Shown here: positions 3,798-32,278 of the stretch, in pieces
Numbering within the stretch: the stretch's first letter is position 1
How the letters are laid out: each line of letters starts with the position of its first letter
Source: a phage
Sequence record: PZ150740.1
DNA: 50,699 bases
Strand: one strand, 5' to 3'
Notes under the pieces: generated by a model
Seen by the model: the letters and a program-made list of their open reading frames with translations, nothing else
Told to the model about the DNA's origin: nothing
The model's database searches: none
Program-made: the position numbers and the translations under genes

Positions 3798-4157
3798 TTA
3801 ATCCTTAAACGCGTGAGCAATTTTGCTGTTAACCTTCGCTTTGATAATCGCGACGCAATAATCAGACAGGCCTCCTCTTGCAATGCGCGATTGCTGATTA
3901 TTAAATTCAATGATGGCCTCGCCAGTTTCGCCATCAATGAAGCGCTCGCGGCCCCAATTGTCTGATATGCGAGCTACACGGGAAACAGCCAGGTAGGGAT
4001 CGTCAATCCCGTAAAATTCCTTGACTGCCTTTTTTGTTAGCTCGTCCTTTTTCGCTACGATTTTCATCGCCACATTGTGACCAATCTGATCTACTGACTG
4101 GTTGCGTTCGATGATATGGCTTACGCGAAAATCAACGTCTTTGTAGCTCTTGAACAT
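3798..4157 (-). CDS. hypothetical protein
   Basis: ORF track. Confidence 0.5.
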   Translation of the reverse strand: MFKSYKDVDFRVSHIIERNQSVDQIGHNVAMKIVAKKDELTKKAVKEFYGIDDPYLAVSRVARISDNWGRERFIDGETGEAIIEFNNQQSRIARGGLSDYCVAIIKAKVNSKIAHAFKD

Positions 4158-5868: not shown

Positions 5869-5913
5869 ATTATGCCAGGCTTTGCGCCTGGCGTTTTAAC
5901 AAAAAGTGCTATT
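5869..5913 (-). promoter_or_regulatory. box promoter unit (-10-like CATAAT)
   Basis: Perfect box 5893-5913; spacer is palindrome GCCAGGCgcaaaGCCTGGC. Confidence 0.55.
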
Positions 5914-6169
5914 TAATATCTGTTGTGACTTGCTGGTGCATTACGTTCTTTCCGCTGTTGTACGTGCTATCCGTTGCGCCTTTGCAATTGGTGTAATAGA
6001 TGGCGCGACCGTTATCATAGAATCTGTATGCTGTGCATCCGTCAACAGTGAACAGGCGACCGACCTTGAAATCTGACTCCGCGCCTACGACAACCGTTGA
6101 TTCTGATGCCTTTTCGCATCCGGTCAGGAGTGTCATTGCCGCCAAAACGCCGATTAATGCCTTTTTCAT
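5909..6169 (-). CDS. lipoprotein (possible Cor-like superinfection exclusion protein)
   Basis: Signal peptide with lipobox LLTGC; small Cys/Tyr-rich mature part; Cor assignment is inference. Confidence 0.5.
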   Translation of the reverse strand: MKKALIGVLAAMTLLTGCEKASESTVVVGAESDFKVGRLFTVDGCTAYRFYDNGRAIYYTNCKGATDSTYNSGKNVMHQQVTTDIK

Positions 6170-6633
6170 TATTGCTCCTCCTCTTTGATGATTTCGCGGA
6201 TCATATCCTGGTAGCGGCTTACGCCCTCACAAGCTCCAGCCAGTTTATCCCCTTCCAGGTCCACGATGTTCGGAATTGCTGCCAGTAAGCGATCGGCAAA
6301 CTTTTTGATCGCCCTTGCCTTGATAGCTGGCAATTCTTCGGGTGTGATGATTTTCCTTTTCGATTCTCGGACCATGCGGAAAACGTAAAATTTATCATCT
6401 TCCGTTTCCTCAACCTTGATGCTTACCCGACCTGCGGCCCTTACTTCTGGAACGCGGTTGATAATGGTCCGGCTGTAGGATGAACTGCGCGTGATCTTGT
6501 AGCAGTCATCGCCGCTTAACATTCCGGCCAGGTCAATTAGTGACATTTTATACTCTTCAATATCGCCACTAGCCAGGCGGCGACCAAGCTCGCGAAGCCA
6601 ATCGCAATAGTCCTTAGTGGTCTTCTGTTCCAT
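6169..6633 (-). CDS. hypothetical early protein (start adjusted to MEQKTTK)
   Basis: ORF track frame; strong RBS GGAGGAAAGGAA before ATG at 6633; first gene after leftward consensus promoter. Confidence 0.5.
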   Translation of the reverse strand: MEQKTTKDYCDWLRELGRRLASGDIEEYKMSLIDLAGMLSGDDCYKITRSSSYSRTIINRVPEVRAAGRVSIKVEETEDDKFYVFRMVRESKRKIITPEELPAIKARAIKKFADRLLAAIPNIVDLEGDKLAGACEGVSRYQDMIREIIKEEEQ

Positions 6634-6664
6634 TTCCTTTCCTCCAGTTGTTGACTGTTGGCGC

Positions 6665-6692
6665 ATTATAAAAGCTATTTGGTGCGTGTCAA
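6665..6692 (-). promoter_or_regulatory. near-consensus sigma70 promoter (TTGACA-16-TATAAT) for leftward early genes
   Basis: Minus strand reads TTGACAcgcaccaaatagctttTATAAT immediately upstream of gene 6169-6633. Confidence 0.6.
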
Positions 6693-13898: not shown

Positions 13899-13926
13899 AG
13901 GAGGCATTAAGCCTCCTTTTTCTTTT
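13899..13926. terminator. rho-independent terminator (plus strand), overlapping 3' end of spanin gene
   Basis: AGGAGGC-attaa-GCCTCCT followed by TTTTTCTTTT. Confidence 0.5.
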
Positions 13927-14302
13927 CTCTCCAGTAAAGACAAATCAGCACAATTAACACAACCACGCATATGATTACTGGATCGTACCATCTGCCGTTA
14001 TTACCCTGCACGACCTGAATTTTGTCTGCCTTGATGGTATTGGCCTGAATGGTTGATGTTGTGAAATCCTTCTTGCTGGACGTGTCCACCTTGTCAACCG
14101 CAGATTCCTTTATTGTGGTTTCCTGTTTTGTGCTGGCGTCCTGCTTTGCTGTAATGCCAACTGTCTGCTTCACGTTCTCCGCGCCAGCCTGTGCTGTGAT
14201 TTCCGGCTTACTGCCGATTAATCCGGTCAGTGGCGTAACGCTTGAACATCCAGACAAGATCACCGCCATTGCGATTGGTGTAAGTAAAAATTTCTTCATC
14301 AT
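13907..14302 (-). CDS. unimolecular spanin (u-spanin)
   Basis: N-terminal lipoprotein signal (ILSGCSS) plus C-terminal TMD (VIICVVVLIVLICLYW); immediately downstream of endolysin. Confidence 0.6.
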   Translation of the reverse strand: MMKKFLLTPIAMAVILSGCSSVTPLTGLIGSKPEITAQAGAENVKQTVGITAKQDASTKQETTIKESAVDKVDTSSKKDFTTSTIQANTIKADKIQVVQGNNGRWYDPVIICVVVLIVLICLYWREKKKEA

Positions 14303-21916: not shown

Positions 21917-21981
21917 GCACTTGAAAATGCTATTATCTGCATTATCATTAGCAAAAAGTGCTATTTAGGAGGATTTTACAA

Positions 21982-24612
21982 ATGGCGATTTACAGACAAG
22001 GCCAAGCGTCTATGGACGCGCAAGGTTATGTAACTGGTTACGATACAAAATGGCGTGAGCAATTAACATTGATTCGCCCAGGTGCAACTATTTTCTTTCT
22101 TACTCAACCTTTGCAAGCTGCTGTGATTACAGAGGTGATTAGCGATACAAGCATTCGCGCAATTACTACTGGCGGCGCGGTAGTCCAGAAGACAAATTAC
22201 CTGATCTTGCTTCATGACTCGTTGACGGTTGACGGGCTGGCGCAGGACGTAGCGGAAACATTGCGTTACTATCAAAGCAAGGAAACGGAGATTGCTGACG
22301 CGCTTGAATTTTTTAGAGATTTCGATCTTGATGGGTTGAAAGATCTTGTAAATCAGGTGAAACAAGGCGCTGAATCAGCAAAACAAAGCGCTAGTGCCGC
22401 AAAGACTTCTGAAACAAACGCTAAAACATCGGAAACTAATGCCAAAGCATCTGAAAATGCAGCCAATGCAAGTAAGAATGCGGCTAAAACATCGGAAACT
22501 AATGCTGCTAACTCGGCTAGTGCCGCAAAGACTTCTGAAACAAACGCCAAAACATCGGAAACTAATGCCAAAGCATCTGAAAATGCAGCCAATGCAAGTA
22601 AGAATGCGGCTAAAACATCGGAAACTAATGCTGCTAACTCGGCTAGTGCCGCAAAGACTTCTGAAACAAACGCCAAAACATCGGAAACTAATGCCAAAGC
22701 ATCTGAAAATGCAGCCAATGCAAGTAAGAATGCGGCTAAAACATCGGAAACTAATGCTGCTAACTCGGCTAGTGCCGCGAAGACTTCTGAAACAAACGCT
22801 AAAACATCGGAAACTAATGCTGCAAACAGTGCAAACAAGGCTAAAACAGAGGCTGATCGCGCAGCGGCTGCTGCTGGAAGCTCAGAGGCTCAGAATAGAG
22901 TGCCGTATGCTGGTGTAACATTACCTGCGCCTACTGGCGTAAGGGATATGCTCAAGCGGTTGCGCGATACTGTCAAAGGAGGATTCTGGCGCGTCGATGA
23001 TATTACGCAGTTCCCTTCTGGCGAGATGACGCCGTTCAGGTATGGTCCAGGGGTGTGCGGCGGCGCTGGTGACACATTTTTTGCGTTTAACGTTGACTAT
23101 CAGACCTCTCGCGTGAAGGTTTTCGCTGGAAACAATGCCGCGATTAACGGCTCATCTGGAAATGTGGGTGCCATTGAACTGGCGAAGCTGGGTGCTAACG
23201 GTGACGTGGCGATCGGAGACGGCGGGACAGGCGCATCGAACGACCAGGGAGCGCGCGCAAACCTTCAGGTCATGCATGAGCGCCGGGCAACGTTGGTTAG
23301 TGAAGACCTTAACATCCTTCAGGGTGATAAGGCTGGATTTTATTATACTAGCTTATCTGCCAACGCAACGCCGGAGCGTAATTATCCCGTTCAGGAAGCA
23401 GGTTGTCTACTTGTTCAGCGCACTGGCGCTAACGATCCTAAAAGCTGCATACAGACGTTTACAGGATACAATAGCGGGCGTCGTTTTATGCGATGGCTTA
23501 GTAACGCGACTACTGGCATCTGGTCGAAATGGTACGAGTTGTATAACGCGGGGTCGTCGCCGGAATATAACGCTTACGTGAGAGCTAAAAGCGGTGATCG
23601 AATCGTCGAAATGTTTGTAGGAGGCACGGATGTTGGCATTCGCAACCGCACGTCGCAGAAAGTGCTACAGCTGCGTGATGATGGAGGCCTTTCGTATGAC
23701 AACAAGCTGATCGCGTATAACGGACTTGTAGCCAGCGGCACCTTCGCTATGACCGTACCAAGCATTAAAGTTACAACCGCTAATGGCGGTTTTCGTATCG
23801 ACGGAACAGCATCAACAAACAACCAACCGCTGCACGTAACAGGGTACAACTCCGCAGGCACGCGTCTTTGGTTTTTAGGTAAAGATACTGGAACGAGTGC
23901 GTTATTTCTAAATGACATAACGAAAAGCAAGGTTGAACTTATCGATTCTGGGGTTGTGTTAGGTACGAAAGACTTTGCGGGAAAAGCATATGTACAGGCG
24001 GCGAGTTTAGAGATAGACCGACCGAGTGGTAAGTATTTCAAAATGCAGAACGACGGAAACTCATCACACCCTGCAAGTTTCAAATTGTGGGGGAACGGGT
24101 CAGATAGACCGTCTGTTATTGAGTGGGCTTTCGATAACGGCCCTGGGTGGGTTTTTTACGGTCAGTTAAATAAAGATAACTCAAAGCATCTTCAAGTTAA
24201 CGGCCCTGTAAATGCGACAGCATTCAATCAAGCATCTGACAGAGATCTTAAGGACAACATTGAGGAGATTGATAACGCAACTGAATCATTGCGCAAAATG
24301 AGCGGATACACTTACACGCTTAAGGAGAATGGTTTACCTTATGCTGGGGTAATTGCTCAAGAAGTAATGGAGGCAATACCGGAAGCTGTTAGCGGATTCA
24401 CTCGGTACACGGATCTTGCTGGTCCAACTAAGGATGGAAATCAGCTAGTTGGCGAGGAAAGATTCTTATCTGTTGATTATGGCGCTGTTACTGGATTGCT
24501 TGTGAAAGTATGCCGTGAAAGTGACGATCGCATAAGCAAACTTGAAAATGAGGTTGCAGAATTAAAAGATTTACTGTCAAAGCTAATCAACAATCCTACT
24601 ACTCTTAACTAA
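21982..24612 (+). CDS. tail fibre with tandem Ala/Ser/Thr-rich repeats and C-terminal intramolecular chaperone domain
   Basis: 42-aa repeat x3.4; C-terminal [13 protein letters not shown]...YAGVIAQEV...LENEVAELK typical of autocleaving chaperone domains. Confidence 0.8.
22390..22819 (+). repeat. intragenic tandem repeat, 126-bp unit, about 3.4 copies, near-identical
   Basis: Unit starts at 22390, 22516, 22642, 22768; only 1-2 substitutions between copies. Confidence 0.85.
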
Positions 24613-26927: not shown

Positions 26928-26957
26928 CTTTAATGCTCCTGGTTGCTTTGTGTGTGC

Positions 26958-26985
26958 ATTGTAGCCATTTGGTTGATTTAGTCAA
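26958..26985 (-). promoter_or_regulatory. near-consensus sigma70 promoter (TTGACT-16-TACAAT) for recombination genes
   Basis: Minus strand reads TTGACTaaatcaaccaaatggcTACAAT; spacer resembles promoter at 6665-6692. Confidence 0.55.
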
Positions 26986-27353
26986 TAGTTGTTTTGTTTT
27001 TTCTGTTTTCTAAACGTTCTCAGATGGCAATAAAACAAATTTGACGCGTAAGTTAATGATTAATATGTGTTATTTTTCTTGTTCCCTTGTTCTCTCAGAT
27101 ACGCCGGATTATATACATACACATGAATGATGGCACATACAGATACTCAGAAAGAAAAATCACCACAAACAACCAAAACCACAAGAAACACAGATAACAA
27201 GAAAAAACAAATATACATACATAAATAAATAAACTATTGATTTTATATGTATATATCTATTTTGTTGATTATTTATTGTTCTTATGTTGGCTAAAATTTG
27301 CGCTAAATTTACGCCGTCTTAAATCCGATAACACCGGAAAACAAAAAATAACA

Positions 27354-27397
27354 TGTAGCACTTTTTGCTAAACCCAGCTTGTCGGATCGTGTATAGT
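27354..27397 (+). promoter_or_regulatory. degenerate box promoter unit (-10-like TATAGT) upstream of lipoprotein gene
   Basis: TGTAGCACTTTTTGCTAAACC (4 mismatches); leader TACAGTCAACAACAAC. Confidence 0.45.
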
Positions 27398-27428
27398 TAC
27401 AGTCAACAACAACTAAGGAGTATTGAAG

Positions 27429-27704
27429 ATGAAAAAATTAATCGCAGTTATAGCCACCGTAGCCGCTCTGACCGGATGTTCTTCTTCGCCTACTGGCAAC
27501 TTCAAGGAGATCGATTGCACGGCAAAATTTAACGTTAAAACATTCCCTGTTAACGGATTCCATGAGGTTAAAATTAATGCTGTCCGCGAAAACAGATTCA
27601 GCCAAAAGCAATACAGGTTGAGCGTTGACAATAAAGAAGTTAAATTTATCAACCGTTGGCAAGATGAAAGAAAATTCATTGATTTGAGGTGCAAAAATGG
27701 CTGA
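27429..27704 (+). CDS. lipoprotein
   Basis: Signal peptide with lipobox ALTGCSS; start adjusted to ATG at 27429. Confidence 0.55.
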   Translation: MKKLIAVIATVAALTGCSSSPTGNFKEIDCTAKFNVKTFPVNGFHEVKINAVRENRFSQKQYRLSVDNKEVKFINRWQDERKFIDLRCKNG

Positions 27705-27975
27705 ATATGGGTATGCAATATATGATGAGCAAGGTAGAAATGTTACTGGCCTTTTAACTCCAGTTTTTTTCTTGGATAAATTTACTCAATCATCTGGCAG
27801 TAAGACCTACTCAAACAGGCCGCCAGGTAAGTCGTTGAAAGCAATATATGTTGGAATGAATTCGTGGCGCGGAGGAGATCCTGGCGCTCCAAGTTTAGGT
27901 GTAAGCGGTGATACTGTTACATGGAGCGGACTTTCTGGATCTGACTCAAGATATATATATACTTTTTGGGGGTAA
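27697..27975 (+). CDS. hypothetical protein
   Basis: ORF track. Confidence 0.45.
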   Translation: MAEYGYAIYDEQGRNVTGLLTPVFFLDKFTQSSGSKTYSNRPPGKSLKAIYVGMNSWRGGDPGAPSLGVSGDTVTWSGLSGSDSRYIYTFWG

Positions 27976-28592
27976 TAATGTACGGGATGAGCATAAAAAA
28001 ACCAGACGGATCATTGTGGTTAAGTCCAGATTTCACTCCTGTTAACCTTATAGATAAAGGTAAAATATCAGCAAAAACAGGAACCGTTTTTAATACTTCT
28101 ATACCAATAAATAGACCGTGCTTCTTTTTTGTAAGGTTAACATCAAAATCATACATAGCATTTAATCAGTTTAATAATGGTGGGAAGCACGCAATAAAGA
28201 TAGAAAAGTCCGACAATCAAGGTGAGGTATTTGTTTATGCTTTTAGCAATATGGTTACTCCTCCTGGTAGTCACGGAATAGCTTTTTATAATGCTAATGG
28301 TGAGATGGTTTATCATGGAAAGATGAAGCCTTTGGATGCAAAACTTGTATCTGTAAGCGGGATCACTTTTGACGTTAACTTGGGATACCCTTGCGCCATC
28401 ATGCCATCACTAACAGCTTTAAACTCTGTGCGTAATCCGTCTTTAGGTGGATTCATGATATTTGAGTCTCAAGCTGCCGCGTATGGCAACGGGGTATATT
28501 CTTTATCTAGGCAGGTTGCGCAAACTTCTGGTCCTGTTGGTATTTACACGGCTTCATCTGTTTTGGTTATAAATTCATCACACTATGATTAA
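27966..28592 (+). CDS. hypothetical protein
   Basis: ORF track. Confidence 0.5.
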   Translation: MGVIMYGMSIKKPDGSLWLSPDFTPVNLIDKGKISAKTGTVFNTSIPINRPCFFFVRLTSKSYIAFNQFNNGGKHAIKIEKSDNQGEVFVYAFSNMVTPPGSHGIAFYNANGEMVYHGKMKPLDAKLVSVSGITFDVNLGYPCAIMPSLTALNSVRNPSLGGFMIFESQAAAYGNGVYSLSRQVAQTSGPVGIYTASSVLVINSSHYD

Positions 28593-28596
28593 AATT

Positions 28597-28622
28597 AAAG
28601 GGGGCTATGCCCCCTTTTTTTT
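28597..28622. terminator. bidirectional rho-independent terminator
   Basis: AGGGGGC-tat-GCCCCCT with T8, between convergent genes. Confidence 0.65.
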
Positions 28623-31600
28623 ACCAACTTCCGGTTATTCTCCCTATCTCAACCCTCAATTGTCCATTTGCATCTTTCACCTTTAATCCTTCGTTAGTGA
28701 ATTTTGTAGCTCCTTCTCCCGCTCTCGTTCCGTAGTTCTCAAAGTTACCATTTTTATCAAGCCTCCATCCTTGCTGATTCTGAACAAAGTTATTTGACTG
28801 AATCACGTTACCAATCATTGCGTTAGTAATGGACCCGTTTTTCACTAGCAGGCTGTTAATGAAAACCTGGTTGTTTTCAACAACGAAAGGCAAAGTAAAC
28901 GTTCCGCCAGTAGAGCTAGTCATGATCGCGAACCTGTTAGCATCAAACAAGATTTGCGAGATCAAGCCTTGAGAAGATTGCGACAACTGCATGATCATTC
29001 CTGCGCTGTACTTCTGCCCCTTGTAAGTAAGGCCCAATTTCATAGCGTACTTAGCGCCAACAGAATCAACGTTAGCCCACGAATCAAGTTTTTCGGCTAG
29101 TGCTGATTCAACGTCTCCGAATTTGGCTGTTAAAGCCTGGTCAGCCTGAACCCTTGCCTCTGTCTCATTAGCGATAGCCTGTCTTACTTCTGAGATGTTC
29201 GCCTCAACATCAACCTTGATTGCATCGTTAAGGTCATTAATCTCTTTCGAAAACTTAGCGTCAAGCTGCTGAACGGCTTGCGCACGCGCTTCTGATTCAT
29301 TGGTAATGGTTTGCCTTACCTCGCCAATACTTGCAGCCGTATCTCGTTTTACGCCGTCTATTTCCTTCGTAAATTTAGAATCAAGCTGCTGAACTTGAGT
29401 AGCTCGCGTCTCTGCTTCGTTGGCAATCGCTTCCTGAACGGTTTTGATACTTGAAACTATATCGTCATCAATTGAAGCCTTTAACTCTTCGATTTGAGTT
29501 ACTCGCGCCTCCGTTTCGTTGGCGATAAGCTCAAGAGCGTGACCATATTCAGCCTTGCGCTTTCCGTTTTGTACTCGCGTCCATTTCACATCAGCATCGT
29601 TTGCCAATGCGTTCTGGATGATTGATTGCGCCTGGTCTTTGATTTTGTTGGCACTGTCTATGGCGTTCTCTTTGATTTCTTGACCCGCTTCGGTATCAAA
29701 AATCTTGTCCAGAATGTCGCCTAAAACAGATTCAACATCATCTGACGCCATGCCGCGAACAAAGTCAGTCCAGCCGGAAACATTGCCGATCCTGTCAACG
29801 CTACGGATTCTATACCATACAACTTGCCCCGCTGGTAACGTGCTATGCCAATACTCATATTGAGGATACGGGATCAGAGTAAGCAAACTTGAGTTTTCCA
29901 CTGTTCCATCTGGCGATTGGTGAAGCTCAATGTAAGCCGTATCTCCAGACCCTTCCGGCATACCCCATTTGACACGAATGCCAAAAACTTCATTATCAGA
30001 AGCTGTAAGATTAATCGGCGCTCCTGGCTCGCCAACTTTACCCGTCAGGGTGGCGGTTGCAATCTTTGACCACGGGGAGGTGTTCCCACTTGCAGAAACA
30101 GATCTAACCCTTACTTGATAGTTCCCCGCGTAAATTCCTTCCACCTCTATCTCTTTGTTAGCTGTCTGCGGCGTGTTCAGCCAGTTACCATCACCTTTTC
30201 GCCATTGCATTTCATACAGTGACGCATAAGGAACTTTTTCCCACGACACAACCATAGTTTCAACGCTGACGCCCTGCACGACGCGAGAATAAGAAGAGAT
30301 CTGCACGTTATCAGGTGCTGCCATCACGTCAGGTTGAACAATTGAAGTTGGCCTGTCATCAATGTTTACGCCATAATCAATCTCGTCGTATTTGTTCGGA
30401 TCGTACTCCACAGCCGTGATTGAAAAGGTAAACTCGTTTTCGTCATCACCCTTGCTGATAGTTGTCACAACGTATTGCTGCAACGCAAGGTCAGTGCGGT
30501 CAATCGCAAAAACAGTATCAGGCTTAACATCAAAACCAAAGCCAATATTTAACTCAATGGTTTTTCCGTCTGCGCTCACCTTTGAGATCGTTCGCTTAAC
30601 TGGCTTTCCGTCCGGCTTGTTGATGATAATAAAATCACCAGGACGAGCATCAACCTTAAACGGAACGAAAACCTGCAATCCTGAAACTTCCATCACTCGG
30701 CCCGATAGGTTTAACGTTAGGTTGCTGCTCTGAAAATTATCAGCGATAGCAATCACATCACCTATTGATGGAATCATCCCCTCCAGTCCAGTAGCAAAGT
30801 TTACAGTAGTGCTTCTAAGGTTTGTTTTCAAAACCCACCGACCGCGACGATTCGCTTCGCTCCTGCGTGTACACCCGATCGCTGTAATGCTTGTTGGATT
30901 GTATCCAAATCGTAATGCCGCCTCAGTATCAAAAACACCCTCTACGTCCTGTTGATACATGTTTTGTTCGTCGTCAAACGTCACATTACATTGCGTGTAC
31001 ATGCTTTTTTCGCTTGCTGCTGTGTACTGAAAATCACCGTTGATGACGTTTTCATTAGTAAACACGTATGATGGATCGCGCGGTTTATCAATCACGATTG
31101 ATAAGCTCTCTCCATTCCAAAAGCTCATTCCGCGAAAGATTGAGCAAATGTCACGGATTAGCTGATAAGCCTCTACTTGATTCTGGATCACCACATCGCA
31201 TAGGTAGCGAGGCTCTGTCCCGCCCTTGCCGTCTGGAACTTTCTGATCACAGTAAACACCTGCCTCGTATAAGCTCCACTTGTCGATCTGTATTCCTAAC
31301 TCTCGCTGGTCAAGCCCATAACGCTGATTCGTCACCAGATCATAAAGAACCCATGCAGGATTATTTGACCACGCTTTTTTAAAAGTCCCATCCCATGACC
31401 CGTGATATTCTCTTGATATTGGATCATAGTTGCTTGGCACATTAATAATCTTCCATTTCTTTTTTATAGAAATGTTAGGGATTTGCGTAGGAAACAATTC
31501 GCTGTCAAATTCTACGAATACAAGGCCAGTCAGAGGATAACGGAATTTTGCATCCACAACCTCAGCGTAACTTTGCAGTTTGATTTTATCAGTCACCTTT

Positions 31601-32199
31601 GAAGATGTGCTGTCTGGAGTCAGTCGCTTGACTCTGATTAAAACGCGCTCCTCAAACTTAGGAAGATCAATCCTTCTGCTGCGGTCATATCCTGATCTTG
31701 TCTTGCCGTCAATTACATCTCTCATAACCTCGCTATAAGAACCGCCATCAACAGCCATATCTACGGCATATTGAACCCTTACACCAACAAGATCGCCGTT
31801 ATCCTCCTGTTTTATGCCAGTTGGCATCAGAATCTTGATTCTGATTGCGGAAAGATTTTTGTTTGTTACAGAGATAATATAGGGATTGTCTGCTGTAATA
31901 TCTCGCGAAACTGTCACCTCGCTTGATGTGTCAGTAAAACCCTGGATGTAATCTTGCGTCTGTGTGCCTGGTCTATATTCAGCCGTTACCCCCTCATAGT
32001 TAACAGTGCCATCACTGGCAATGACAGGAACATCATCAAGATAAAGATCACGCAACGTGAAATCTGGATCGCACTCGCCATCAGATACAGCCAGCAAAAC
32101 TTTAATCTTGTTTATCGAGATCAGGTTATCTTCCATCTCTTTTGGCACGTATGGCTTTTTGCTTCCGCCCTTACTGCCGCTTATCATATATTTAGCCAT
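28621..32199 (-). CDS. tail tip / host specificity protein (lambda J-like)
   Basis: Strong resemblance to lambda J (VPSNYDP...WDGTFKKAWSNNPAWVLYDL); start adjusted to MAKYMISGSKGG. Confidence 0.85.
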   Translation of the reverse strand: MAKYMISGSKGGSKKPYVPKEMEDNLISINKIKVLLAVSDGECDPDFTLRDLYLDDVPVIASDGTVNYEGVTAEYRPGTQTQDYIQGFTDTSSEVTVSRDITADNPYIISVTNKNLSAIRIKILMPTGIKQEDNGDLVGVRVQYAVDMAVDGGSYSEVMRDVIDGKTRSGYDRSRRIDLPKFEERVLIRVKRLTPDSTSSKVTDKIKLQSYAEVVDAKFRYPLTGLVFVEFDSELFPTQIPNISIKKKWKIINVPSNYDPISREYHGSWDGTFKKAWSNNPAWVLYDLVTNQRYGLDQRELGIQIDKWSLYEAGVYCDQKVPDGKGGTEPRYLCDVVIQNQVEAYQLIRDICSIFRGMSFWNGESLSIVIDKPRDPSYVFTNENVINGDFQYTAASEKSMYTQCNVTFDDEQNMYQQDVEGVFDTEAALRFGYNPTSITAIGCTRRSEANRRGRWVLKTNLRSTTVNFATGLEGMIPSIGDVIAIADNFQSSNLTLNLSGRVMEVSGLQVFVPFKVDARPGDFIIINKPDGKPVKRTISKVSADGKTIELNIGFGFDVKPDTVFAIDRTDLALQQYVVTTISKGDDENEFTFSITAVEYDPNKYDEIDYGVNIDDRPTSIVQPDVMAAPDNVQISSYSRVVQGVSVETMVVSWEKVPYASLYEMQWRKGDGNWLNTPQTANKEIEVEGIYAGNYQVRVRSVSASGNTSPWSKIATATLTGKVGEPGAPINLTASDNEVFGIRVKWGMPEGSGDTAYIELHQSPDGTVENSSLLTLIPYPQYEYWHSTLPAGQVVWYRIRSVDRIGNVSGWTDFVRGMASDDVESVLGDILDKIFDTEAGQEIKENAIDSANKIKDQAQSIIQNALANDADVKWTRVQNGKRKAEYGHALELIANETEARVTQIEELKASIDDDIVSSIKTVQEAIANEAETRATQVQQLDSKFTKEIDGVKRDTAASIGEVRQTITNESEARAQAVQQLDAKFSKEINDLNDAIKVDVEANISEVRQAIANETEARVQADQALTAKFGDVESALAEKLDSWANVDSVGAKYAMKLGLTYKGQKYSAGMIMQLSQSSQGLISQILFDANRFAIMTSSTGGTFTLPFVVENNQVFINSLLVKNGSITNAMIGNVIQSNNFVQNQQGWRLDKNGNFENYGTRAGEGATKFTNEGLKVKDANGQLRVEIGRITGSW

Positions 32200-32278
32200 G
32201 ACTTTTAACCTTTTGTGCTGTTTCTTGGTTTGAACATTATAAAGGCACAAAAAAACCCGCGCAAGGCGGGTATTTTTT

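What the first reader, a model, noticed from the sequence alone, without database searches (positions are those of the whole stretch)
5909..6169. Two small lipoproteins as candidate superinfection-exclusion (Cor-like) factors
Genes 5909-6169 and 27429-27704 both encode short proteins with classical lipoboxes (LLTGC, ALTGC) and Cys/Tyr-rich mature parts. Phages that use outer-membrane receptors often encode small lipoproteins (Cor) that block the receptor after infection. The second gene sits next to the receptor-recognising tail genes. The functional assignment is inference from architecture only.
Basis: inference. Interest (0 to 1): 0.45.

Follow-up and report, generated by a model that had tools for sequence, protein, structure and literature searches.

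The report
Two unrelated phage lipoproteins, one receptor-blocker
This T1-like coliphage encodes two unrelated small lipoproteins: the one beside the tail genes is most likely the usual factor that blocks the phage's own receptor (probably BtuB, not FhuA), and the one at the given coordinates belongs to a large uncharacterised phage family (DUF4884) that does not track any receptor.

Summary
Both ORFs exist as described and both carry a real lipoprotein signal peptide. The window is a Warwickvirus-like Drexlerviridae coliphage.

**LP2 (27429-27704, +)** is the first gene of a three-gene operon convergent with the J tail-tip gene.
- The three products are 94, 93 and 86% identical to those of phage FritzSarasin (Bas04), whose terminal receptor was determined experimentally as BtuB.
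- LP2 is therefore the positional equivalent of Cor, Llp and Rtp45, and most likely a BtuB-blocking exclusion lipoprotein.
- Its PHROG "Cor" match depends on the signal peptide. The mature domain alone gives no Cor hit and keeps only a weak C-terminal Cor-like motif.

**LP1 (5909-6169, -)** is not Cor-like.
- It belongs to the DUF4884 family: at least 1231 clusters, and every genomic context I examined was phage or prophage.
- It is the second gene behind a perfect sigma-70 promoter.
- T1 lacks it. Nearly the same allele occurs in BtuB-type and FhuA-type phages, and a roughly 53-55% identical one in LptD-type phages.
- Its mature domain is swapped as a cassette, independently of every other gene.
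- No fold match points to a function, so its function is unknown. A periplasmic binder of a host envelope target is my best guess.

Overall, LP2 is an ordinary new member of a known kind and LP1 is an open question.

The parts
5909..6169 (-). LP1 gene: 86-aa lipoprotein precursor of the DUF4884 family. The signal peptide is encoded by 6119-6169, the lipid Cys18 codon is 6116-6118, the mature domain is 5912-6118, and the stop codon is 5909-5911.
   Evidence: ORF. Pfam DUF4884 E 1.5e-5, 25.1 bits, below the gathering cut-off of 30. phrog_6360, unknown function, E 8.6e-12. 106 of 121 relatives hit DUF4884. AF2 model of the mature part: pLDDT 83, six-stranded beta meander.
6169..6633 (-). Upstream gene of the same operon, encoding a DUF7174 protein. 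The likely start is Met12 of the listed ORF 6169-6666. Its stop codon overlaps the LP1 start.
   Evidence: Pfam DUF7174 E 4e-51. JLBYU26 annotates a 465-nt CDS here. A homologue (rtp1) also precedes the LP1 homologue (rtp3) in phage Rtp, and T1 has neither gene.
6665..6692 (-). Perfect consensus sigma-70 promoter (TTGACA, 16 nt, TATAAT; 12 of 12 matches) driving the DUF7174-LP1 operon.
   Evidence: Promoter scan. The region is 100% identical in phage tonnikala.
27429..27704 (+). LP2 gene: 91-aa lipoprotein precursor, the probable exclusion lipoprotein of the host-recognition module. The signal peptide is encoded by 27429-27476 and the lipid Cys17 codon is 27477-27479. The mature domain has Cys30 and Cys88.
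   Evidence: ORF. 94% identical to FritzSarasin bas04_0025. phrog_1119 'Cor' E 5.9e-8 for the full-length protein, but no hit for the mature part alone. C-terminal Cor-like motif by hhalign.
27697..27975 (+). Second gene of the module (92 aa, phrog_557 'outer membrane protein'). It is a distant homologue of T1 gp32 and a candidate receptor-binding component.
   Evidence: phrog_557 E 6e-21. 93% identical to bas04_0024, and 32% identical to the corresponding protein of the FhuA-type phage Bas05.
27978..28592 (+). Third gene of the module (204 aa from the ATG; phrog_425 'membrane associated protein'). It is a distant homologue of T1 gp31 and a candidate receptor-binding protein.
   Evidence: phrog_425 E 1e-50. 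86% identical to bas04_0023, and 24% identical to the FhuA-type counterpart.
28597..28617 (.). Bidirectional intrinsic terminator between the LP2 operon and the convergent J gene.
   Evidence: 9-bp GC-rich stem with T runs on both strands.
28621..32250 (-). J-like tail-tip protein gene (1209 aa), convergent with the LP2 operon.
   Evidence: ORF list. Annotated as tail fibre or J-like protein in relatives.

Best explanation
The two lipoproteins are unrelated and do different jobs.

LP2 is the exclusion lipoprotein of the phage's host-recognition module.
- It is made from a three-gene operon (lipoprotein, then two receptor-binding-module genes) convergent with J.
- There it probably binds the periplasmic face of the phage's own terminal receptor, so that further virions cannot bind an infected cell or its debris.
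- By homology to FritzSarasin (Bas04), that receptor is most likely the TonB-dependent transporter BtuB, not FhuA.
- The mechanism is inferred by analogy with T5 Llp-FhuA and Rtp45-LptDE.

LP1 is a member of the large DUF4884 family of small phage lipoproteins.
- It is expressed immediately from a consensus host promoter.
- It probably sits in the periplasm anchored to the outer membrane (Glu, not Asp, at +2) with a Cys45-Cys62 disulfide.
- It is not the blocker of the phage's own receptor.
- My best guess is that it binds a host envelope component through a conserved beta core, with specificity tuned by its variable tether and C-terminal hairpin. It would then act in phage-phage competition or envelope conditioning. 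This last step is inference only.
For: Evidence for the LP2 reading:
- The window's LP2, p557 and p425 are 94, 93 and 86% identical to FritzSarasin bas04_0025, 0024 and 0023, with the same gene order and orientation.
- BASEL supplementary file 5 lists BtuB as the terminal receptor of FritzSarasin and of KarlJaspers, whose LP2 homologue is 56% identical. It lists FhuA for JakobBernoulli and Bas05, which carry a T1-like Cor in the T1-type gene order.
- Published work places exclusion lipoproteins directly beside the receptor-binding genes downstream of gpJ (PMC8594841, PMC9586334, PMC12685063, PMC13164509).
- LP2 shares Cor's layout: a lipobox, one Cys near the start and one near the end of the mature domain, and a C-terminal FxxRWx5Fx3C motif. 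The hhalign score is 19.6, and 0 of 150 column shuffles reach it.

Evidence for the LP1 reading:
- Family size and lipobox conservation.
- Perfect promoter, RBS and translational coupling.
- Two family members lack both Cys together, which supports a disulfide.
- Alleles at least 88% identical occur with BtuB-type modules (window, FritzSarasin, KarlJaspers) and with T1-like Cor, FhuA-type modules (PGN590, herni, Henu8, aalborv). A 52-55% allele occurs in the LptD-type phages Rtp and JeanPiccard, which have their own exclusion lipoprotein Rtp45.
- Against phage tonnikala, only the mature-domain coding part (5920-6119) drops to 40-72% identity, while the flanks and signal peptide stay at 90-100%.
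- No other gene in 8 related genomes shares LP1's allele pattern.
Against: Nothing here is experimental for this phage.

Against the LP2 reading:
- The mature domain has no significant match to Cor profiles on its own and none to Llp or Rtp45 sequences in the PDB.
- BtuB binding rests entirely on homology to relatives whose receptor, not whose lipoprotein, was tested.

Against the LP1 reading:
- No partner, phenotype or informative fold match was found.
- The strong conservation of the core across phages of E. coli, Serratia and Pseudomonas, with some members carrying unusual lipobox sequences, may simply reflect folding constraints in a 50-residue domain.
- The whole early region is mosaic, so cassette exchange is not unique to LP1.
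Confidence: 0.6

Rival explanations
1. One reading: both lipoproteins are Cor-like blockers of the phage's own outer-membrane receptor, with LP1 as a second, redundant blocker.
For: Both have lipoprotein signal peptides with a non-Asp +2 residue. Both are small beta-rich proteins with a single disulfide pair, like Llp, Cor and Rtp45. LP1 is expressed early, as T5 Llp is (bioRxiv 10.64898/2026.03.26.714494, abstract).
Against: The LP1 mature domain shows no similarity to Cor or to LP2. It lies about 21 kb from the tail genes. The same allele occurs with BtuB-type and FhuA-type modules, and a diverged one in LptD-type phages. T1 has Cor but no LP1. The LP1 allele is unlinked to LP2, J, the tape measure and the lateral fibre.
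Confidence: 0.08
2. LP2 is a genuine Cor that blocks FhuA, as the PHROG-based label 'Cor superinfection exclusion protein' in some relatives implies.
For: phrog_1119 E 5.9e-8, and all 13 family members hit it. NCBIfam Cor aligns over the full length at E 0.0014. The neighbouring genes fall in the same PHROGs as T1 gp32 and gp31. Phage Kalemo annotates its homologue as Cor.
Against: The hit disappears when the signal peptide is removed, whereas mature T1 Cor scores 3e-19. The NCBIfam score of 18.6 is below the cut-off of 31. The closest characterised relatives use BtuB, while FhuA users in the same genus carry a T1-like Cor in a different gene order.
Confidence: 0.1
3. LP1 acts on the host envelope for the phage's own benefit rather than in exclusion. 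It might be a periplasmic inhibitor of a host hydrolase, protease or stress sensor, it might stabilise the envelope until lysis, or it might counter an envelope-based defence.
For: It is expressed immediately-early among host-takeover-type small genes. Homologues always sit in early, recombination or nin-like gene arrays of virulent and temperate phages, never beside receptor-binding genes. The conserved core across hosts suggests a conserved target.
Against: There is no match to any known inhibitor family or defence or anti-defence model. Mature-domain cassette exchange between near-identical phages looks more like a specificity determinant than a housekeeping function.
Confidence: 0.22
4. 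LP1 is a lysis component, such as an o-spanin-like lipoprotein.
For: It is a small outer-membrane-type lipoprotein.
Against: The phage already has a holin, endolysin and unimolecular spanin cassette elsewhere (13907-14302 and neighbours). LP1 is not proline-rich and not near the endolysin. The upstream DUF7174 protein has no transmembrane segment. LP1 sits behind an early promoter.
Confidence: 0.03

Closest known systems
Cor exclusion lipoproteins of T1, phi80, N15 and HK022 (PHROG 1119, NCBIfam NF047972)
   Same: LP2 shares several features with Cor: a very similar signal peptide and lipobox; similar size; one Cys near the start and one near the end of the mature domain; a C-terminal FxxRW...F...C motif; and a location next to J together with phrog_557 and phrog_425 genes.
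   Different: The LP2 mature domain does not hit the Cor profile on its own. Its gene order differs: all three genes are convergent with J, whereas in T1 only cor is. Its relatives use BtuB, not FhuA. LP1 shares nothing with Cor beyond being a lipoprotein.
Rtp45 of phage Rtp (LptDE-blocking exclusion lipoprotein, PDB 9RPS)
   Same: It has the same operon logic as LP2: the lipoprotein gene comes first, then the receptor-binding gene, convergent with J. It is a small disulfide-containing beta-hairpin lipoprotein that binds the receptor from the periplasm (PMC12685063).
   Different: There is no sequence similarity to LP2 or LP1, and it targets a different receptor class. Rtp carries both Rtp45 and an LP1 homologue (rtp3), which shows that the two have separate roles.
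Llp of phage T5 (FhuA-blocking lipoprotein, PDB 8A60)
   Same: It serves as the mechanistic model for LP2: an early-made outer-membrane lipoprotein that binds the periplasmic face of a TonB-dependent transporter and allosterically closes the phage-binding site (PMC9586334).
Pfam DUF4884 (PF16225), with PHROG 6360
   Same: LP1 and nearly all of its relatives match this model. They share the core FxVxxLFtvDGCxxYRFxDxGrxxYYTnCxG.
   Different: The window protein scores just below Pfam's gathering cut-off (25.1 against 30). No function has been described for the family. Only two papers in the library mention it, both in passing.

Membership tests
Cor family (PHROG 1119 / NF047972) - LP2 | Lipoprotein signal peptide with lipobox and a non-Asp +2 residue | tested here: met
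   MKKLIAVIATVAALTGC|SS. The feature is conserved in all 13 family members.
Cor family (PHROG 1119 / NF047972) - LP2 | Mature domain matches the Cor profile | tested here: inconclusive
   The full-length hit is E 5.9e-8, but the mature part alone gives no hit, while mature T1 Cor gives 3.1e-19. NCBIfam scores 18.6 bits, below the cut-off of 31. hhalign on mature domains only finds a 17-column C-terminal motif with score 19.6, which 0 of 150 shuffles reach.
Cor family (PHROG 1119 / NF047972) - LP2 | Gene lies beside J together with homologues of T1 gp32 and gp31 | tested here: met
   phrog_557 and phrog_425 genes follow LP2, and J is convergent. The orientation differs from T1.
Cor family (PHROG 1119 / NF047972) - LP2 | Blocks FhuA-dependent phages | not testable with these tools
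   The closest characterised relatives, Bas04 and Bas06, use BtuB, which argues against FhuA as the target.
Cor family - LP1 | Mature-domain similarity to Cor, and location beside the tail genes | tested here: not met
   hhalign score 8.9, below the shuffle mean of 10.3. Only the signal peptide aligns with the LP2 family. The gene lies in the early region, about 21 kb from J.
T5 Llp / Rtp45 exclusion lipoproteins | Sequence or fold similarity to the solved proteins | tested here: not met
Pfam DUF4884 (PF16225) - LP1 | Match to the family model | tested here: met
   E 1.5e-5 at 25.1 bits, just under the gathering score of 30. 106 of 121 relatives match, the best at 2.2e-10. All homologues carry the precomputed PF16225 hit.
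Spanins (o-spanin or u-spanin) - LP1 | Lipoprotein encoded in or next to the lysis cassette and paired with an inner-membrane partner | tested here: not met
   The lysis cassette with its own lipobox-bearing u-spanin is elsewhere in the window. The gene upstream of LP1 encodes a soluble DUF7174 protein.

The most novel reading that the evidence does not exclude
LP1 and the DUF4884 family represent a widespread, unrecognised class of early phage periplasmic lipoproteins. They would act independently of the phage's own receptor, for example by excluding rival phages through a conserved envelope machine or by blocking genome passage across the periplasm. Exchangeable mature-domain alleles would set their specificity.
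Probability: 0.25. Interest if true: 0.6.

Novelty: new member of a known kind. Interest (0 to 1): 0.33.

Why it matters
LP2 adds a likely BtuB-directed member to the set of periplasmic lipoproteins that switch off phage receptors from inside the cell. Structures exist so far only for FhuA-Llp and LptDE-Rtp45, so a BtuB complex would test whether 'reverse allostery' is general among TonB-dependent transporters.

The analysis also shows that automated 'Cor' labels on these genes rest mainly on the signal peptide. They can therefore suggest the wrong receptor.

LP1 points to a very large phage lipoprotein family with no known function. It is made first in infection and its alleles are swapped as cassettes. 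Its function is untested; if it proved to be an exclusion or envelope-targeting factor, it would matter for phage competition and for designing phage cocktails.

Tried and rejected
- **LP1 and LP2 as paralogues: rejected.** Profile-profile alignment covers only the 21 signal-peptide and lipobox columns, and the mature domains score below shuffles.
- **Defence-system models (PADLOC):** no hits for either lipoprotein or their neighbours.
- **A conserved functional neighbour for LP1:** DUF7174 precedes it in Warwickvirus-like phages and in Rtp, but not elsewhere, and DUF7174 has independent alleles.
- **A phage-encoded partner by allele linkage across 8 genomes:** none was found.
- **Bacterial chromosomal homologues:** the scan returned 12 loci, mostly in Pseudomonas genomes. 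The one I examined (L007) lies in a prophage early region.
- **Literature searches** for DUF4884 and for SECphi27 with lipoprotein gave nothing useful.
- **Two failed runs.** One Python run misread multi-record locus files and was repeated. One timed out.

Full report
**What the window is.** The region around both genes is 97-98% identical to Warwickvirus-like coliphages of the family Drexlerviridae, subfamily Tempevirinae, such as JLBYU26, vB_EcoS-95, Poky and FritzSarasin. These are T1-like virulent siphophages.

**The observation.**
- LP1 (5909-6169, - strand, 86 aa) begins MKKALIGVLAAMTLLTGC|EK. It has a GAGGAG ribosome-binding site, and its ATG overlaps the stop codon of the upstream gene as TAATG.
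- LP2 (27429-27704, + strand, 91 aa) begins MKKLIAVIATVAALTGC|SS behind an AAGGAG site.
- The lipoboxes are conserved in 239 of 263 LP1 relatives and in all 13 LP2 relatives, so they are not chance features.
- Besides the lipid cysteine, each mature protein has exactly two cysteines: LP1 C45 and C62, LP2 C30 and C88.
- 'Tyr-rich' holds for LP1 (5 Tyr) but not for LP2 (1 Tyr).
- The window contains a third lipobox protein, the unimolecular spanin at 13907-14302.

**LP2 and its surroundings.** LP2 is the first gene of a three-gene + strand operon.
- The operon is LP2, then a 92-aa phrog_557 protein (27697-27975), then a 204-aa phrog_425 protein (27978-28592).
- It ends at a bidirectional terminator (28597-28617) and faces the J tail-tip gene (28621-32250, -).
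- The literature describes exactly this locus in small siphophages. Receptor-binding proteins and their cognate exclusion lipoproteins are encoded directly downstream of gpJ, and the allele type predicts the terminal receptor (PMC8594841; PMC9586334; PMC13164509).
- Structures show how two such lipoproteins work. [quoted passage not shown] In both cases the extracellular loops change so that the receptor-binding protein can no longer bind.

**Which receptor.** The three window proteins are 94, 93 and 86% identical to bas04_0025, 0024 and 0023 of FritzSarasin, with identical gene order.
- The BASEL supplementary table gives BtuB as the experimentally determined terminal receptor of FritzSarasin (Bas04) and of KarlJaspers (Bas06), whose LP2 homologue is 56% identical.
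- FhuA users are arranged differently. JakobBernoulli (Bas07) and Bas05, the latter from the same genus, carry a lipoprotein 55% identical to T1 Cor. Their gene order is the T1 one: two genes co-directional with J, and cor convergent.
- The window therefore carries the BtuB-type module, and LP2 is most likely a BtuB-directed exclusion lipoprotein. This step is inferred from homology. Neither this lipoprotein nor that of Bas04 has been tested.

**Is LP2 a Cor?** Full-length LP2 hits PHROG 1119 ('Cor superinfection exclusion protein') at E 5.9e-8, as do all 13 family members. At least one relative, Kalemo, is annotated this way.
- When I removed the signal peptide, the hit vanished, whereas the mature part of T1 Cor scored 3.1e-19.
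- The NCBIfam Cor model scores 18.6 bits against a cut-off of 31.
- I built mature-only alignments of the LP2 family and of eleven Cor proteins: T1, four close T1-like variants, JakobBernoulli, N15, phi80, mEp390, KarlBarth and Stx2-86.
- hhalign found one local match, the C-terminal 17 columns (FxxRWxxxxxFxxxC), with score 19.6. None of 150 column-shuffled controls reached it (mean 10.1, sd 2.1, maximum 17.3).
- An earlier glocal alignment also lined up both cysteines.
- LP2 is therefore at best a very diverged relative of Cor. Membership is inconclusive, and the automated label rests mainly on the signal peptide.
- Neither LP2 nor its family profile matches Llp or Rtp45 in the PDB.

**LP1 is something else.** Profile-profile comparison of the LP1 and LP2 families aligns only the signal peptide and lipobox. 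The mature domains score below shuffled controls against each other and against Cor.
- LP1 matches Pfam DUF4884 (E 1.5e-5, just under the gathering score) and PHROG 6360, both of unknown function.
- The family is large: 186 clusters in the word-indexed search and 1231 representatives at E <= 0.001 in the exhaustive search.
- Nearly all members listed in these searches are lipoproteins of about 80-95 aa sharing the core FxVxxLFtvDGCxxYRFxDxGrxxYYTnCxG.
- Two members lack both core cysteines together, which supports a C45-C62 disulfide and hence a periplasmic location.
- With 121 sequences, AlphaFold gave a six-stranded beta meander at pLDDT 83.

**Expression and context of LP1.** A perfect sigma-70 consensus promoter (TTGACA, 16 nt, TATAAT) lies at 6692-6665 on the - strand. 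It is followed by a DUF7174 gene (6169-6633) and then LP1, which is translationally coupled to it. LP1 should therefore be made by host RNA polymerase right after genome entry.
- Homologues occur in other Drexlerviridae, in 68-kb Serratia and Erwinia phages, in a 95-kb Pseudomonas phage, in a contig of jumbo-phage size (351 kb), and in prophages or temperate-phage contigs, including one in a Pseudomonas chromosome.
- In every case the gene sits among small early, recombination or nin-type genes, and never in a receptor-binding module.
- DUF7174 also precedes it in Rtp (rtp1 and rtp3), but not outside Drexlerviridae. T1 lacks both genes.

**LP1 does not follow the receptor.**
- Alleles at least 88% identical to the window's occur in BtuB-type phages (FritzSarasin, KarlJaspers) and in phages with a T1-like Cor (PGN590, herni, Henu8, aalborv).
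- The LptD-type phages Rtp and JeanPiccard have a 52-55% identical allele. Rtp also has its own dedicated exclusion lipoprotein, Rtp45.
- Conversely, phages whose LP2 is 100% identical to the window's (tonijn, JLBYU10, BEK26, brachmannus) carry an LP1 allele only 45-47% identical.

**Cassette exchange.** Against phage tonnikala, the 2-kb region is 95-100% identical except for 5920-6119, which drops to 40-72%. That stretch is the mature-domain coding part of LP1, and the signal-peptide codons stay at 90-100%.
- I compared 88 window ORFs with eight related genomes. No other gene shares LP1's allele pattern. LP2, J, the tape measure, the hypervariable lateral fibre and even DUF7174 all vary independently.
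- This argues against a cognate phage-encoded partner. It favours a host or rival-phage target, or neutral mosaicism in a generally mosaic early region.
- Within the family, the tether (residues 19-33) and the C-terminal hairpin (65-86) are variable, with mean top-residue frequencies of 0.41 and 0.43. The core (34-64) is conserved at 0.76.
- The same 'keep the signal peptide, swap the mature domain' pattern occurs at the cor locus. Some T1-like contigs fuse the T1 Cor signal peptide to an Rtp45-like mature domain. LP1 thus evolves in the manner of an exclusion lipoprotein, although that is only a resemblance.

**Verdict.**
- It does not hold for LP1, whose function remains unknown.
- I commit to LP1 being an early, outer-membrane-anchored periplasmic binder of a host envelope component that acts in competition or envelope conditioning, with roughly one-in-three confidence.
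- LP2 is a new member of a known kind. LP1 is an uncharacterised but very widespread phage family that deserves a simple expression screen.

Noticed in passing
window 6665-6692 (- strand): A 12-of-12 consensus sigma-70 promoter (TTGACA, 16 nt, TATAAT) lies immediately upstream of the DUF7174-LP1 operon. Because of it, the listed ORF start at 6666 is unlikely, and Met12 at 6633 is the probable start.
   Followed up: partly
window 13907-14302 (- strand): A third lipobox protein (MMKKFLLTPIAMAVILSGC|SS, 131 aa). Homologous genes in related phages are annotated as 'Rz-like spanin' or unimolecular spanin in their lysis cassettes.
   Followed up: no
L036 and L038 (IMG/VR T1-like contigs), 2501-2730: A lipoprotein with the exact T1 Cor signal peptide (MKKLITIIAAAFILTGC) but an Rtp45-like mature domain (..VPAGEIDMRFKG..). 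At the cor locus, exclusion lipoproteins appear to exchange mature domains while keeping the signal peptide.
   Followed up: partly
window 6169-6633 (- strand): The DUF7174 gene has its own sharply distinct alleles among near-identical phages (about 100%, 65% and 26-27% identity). These are distributed independently of the LP1 alleles.
   Followed up: partly
window 21958-24612 (+ strand): The lateral tail-fibre gene (884 aa) is the most variable large gene, at 3-75% identity times coverage across eight relatives. This fits the reported hypervariability of this locus.
   Followed up: no
window 3798-4157 (- strand): A 119-aa ORF absent from all eight close relatives examined, but 34% identical to T1 gene product 1 (ST1).
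   Followed up: no
window 26928-27428: A 500-bp AT-rich stretch with no ORF between the exonuclease gene and LP2. No + strand consensus promoter was found for the LP2 operon.
   Followed up: no
GenBank records MG0656xx (for example L023): Records named 'Campylobacter phage' (UNVERIFIED, host C. jejuni) are classified as Drexlerviridae (Hanrivervirus). They carry LP1 and LP2 homologues typical of coliphages, so the host label looks doubtful.
   Followed up: no
OR243293.1 (Vibrio phage vB_VibM_83AMN) 52154-52423: The only LP2-like hit outside Drexlerviridae: 35% identity over the full length, E 5e-6. Its genomic context was not examined.
   Followed up: no
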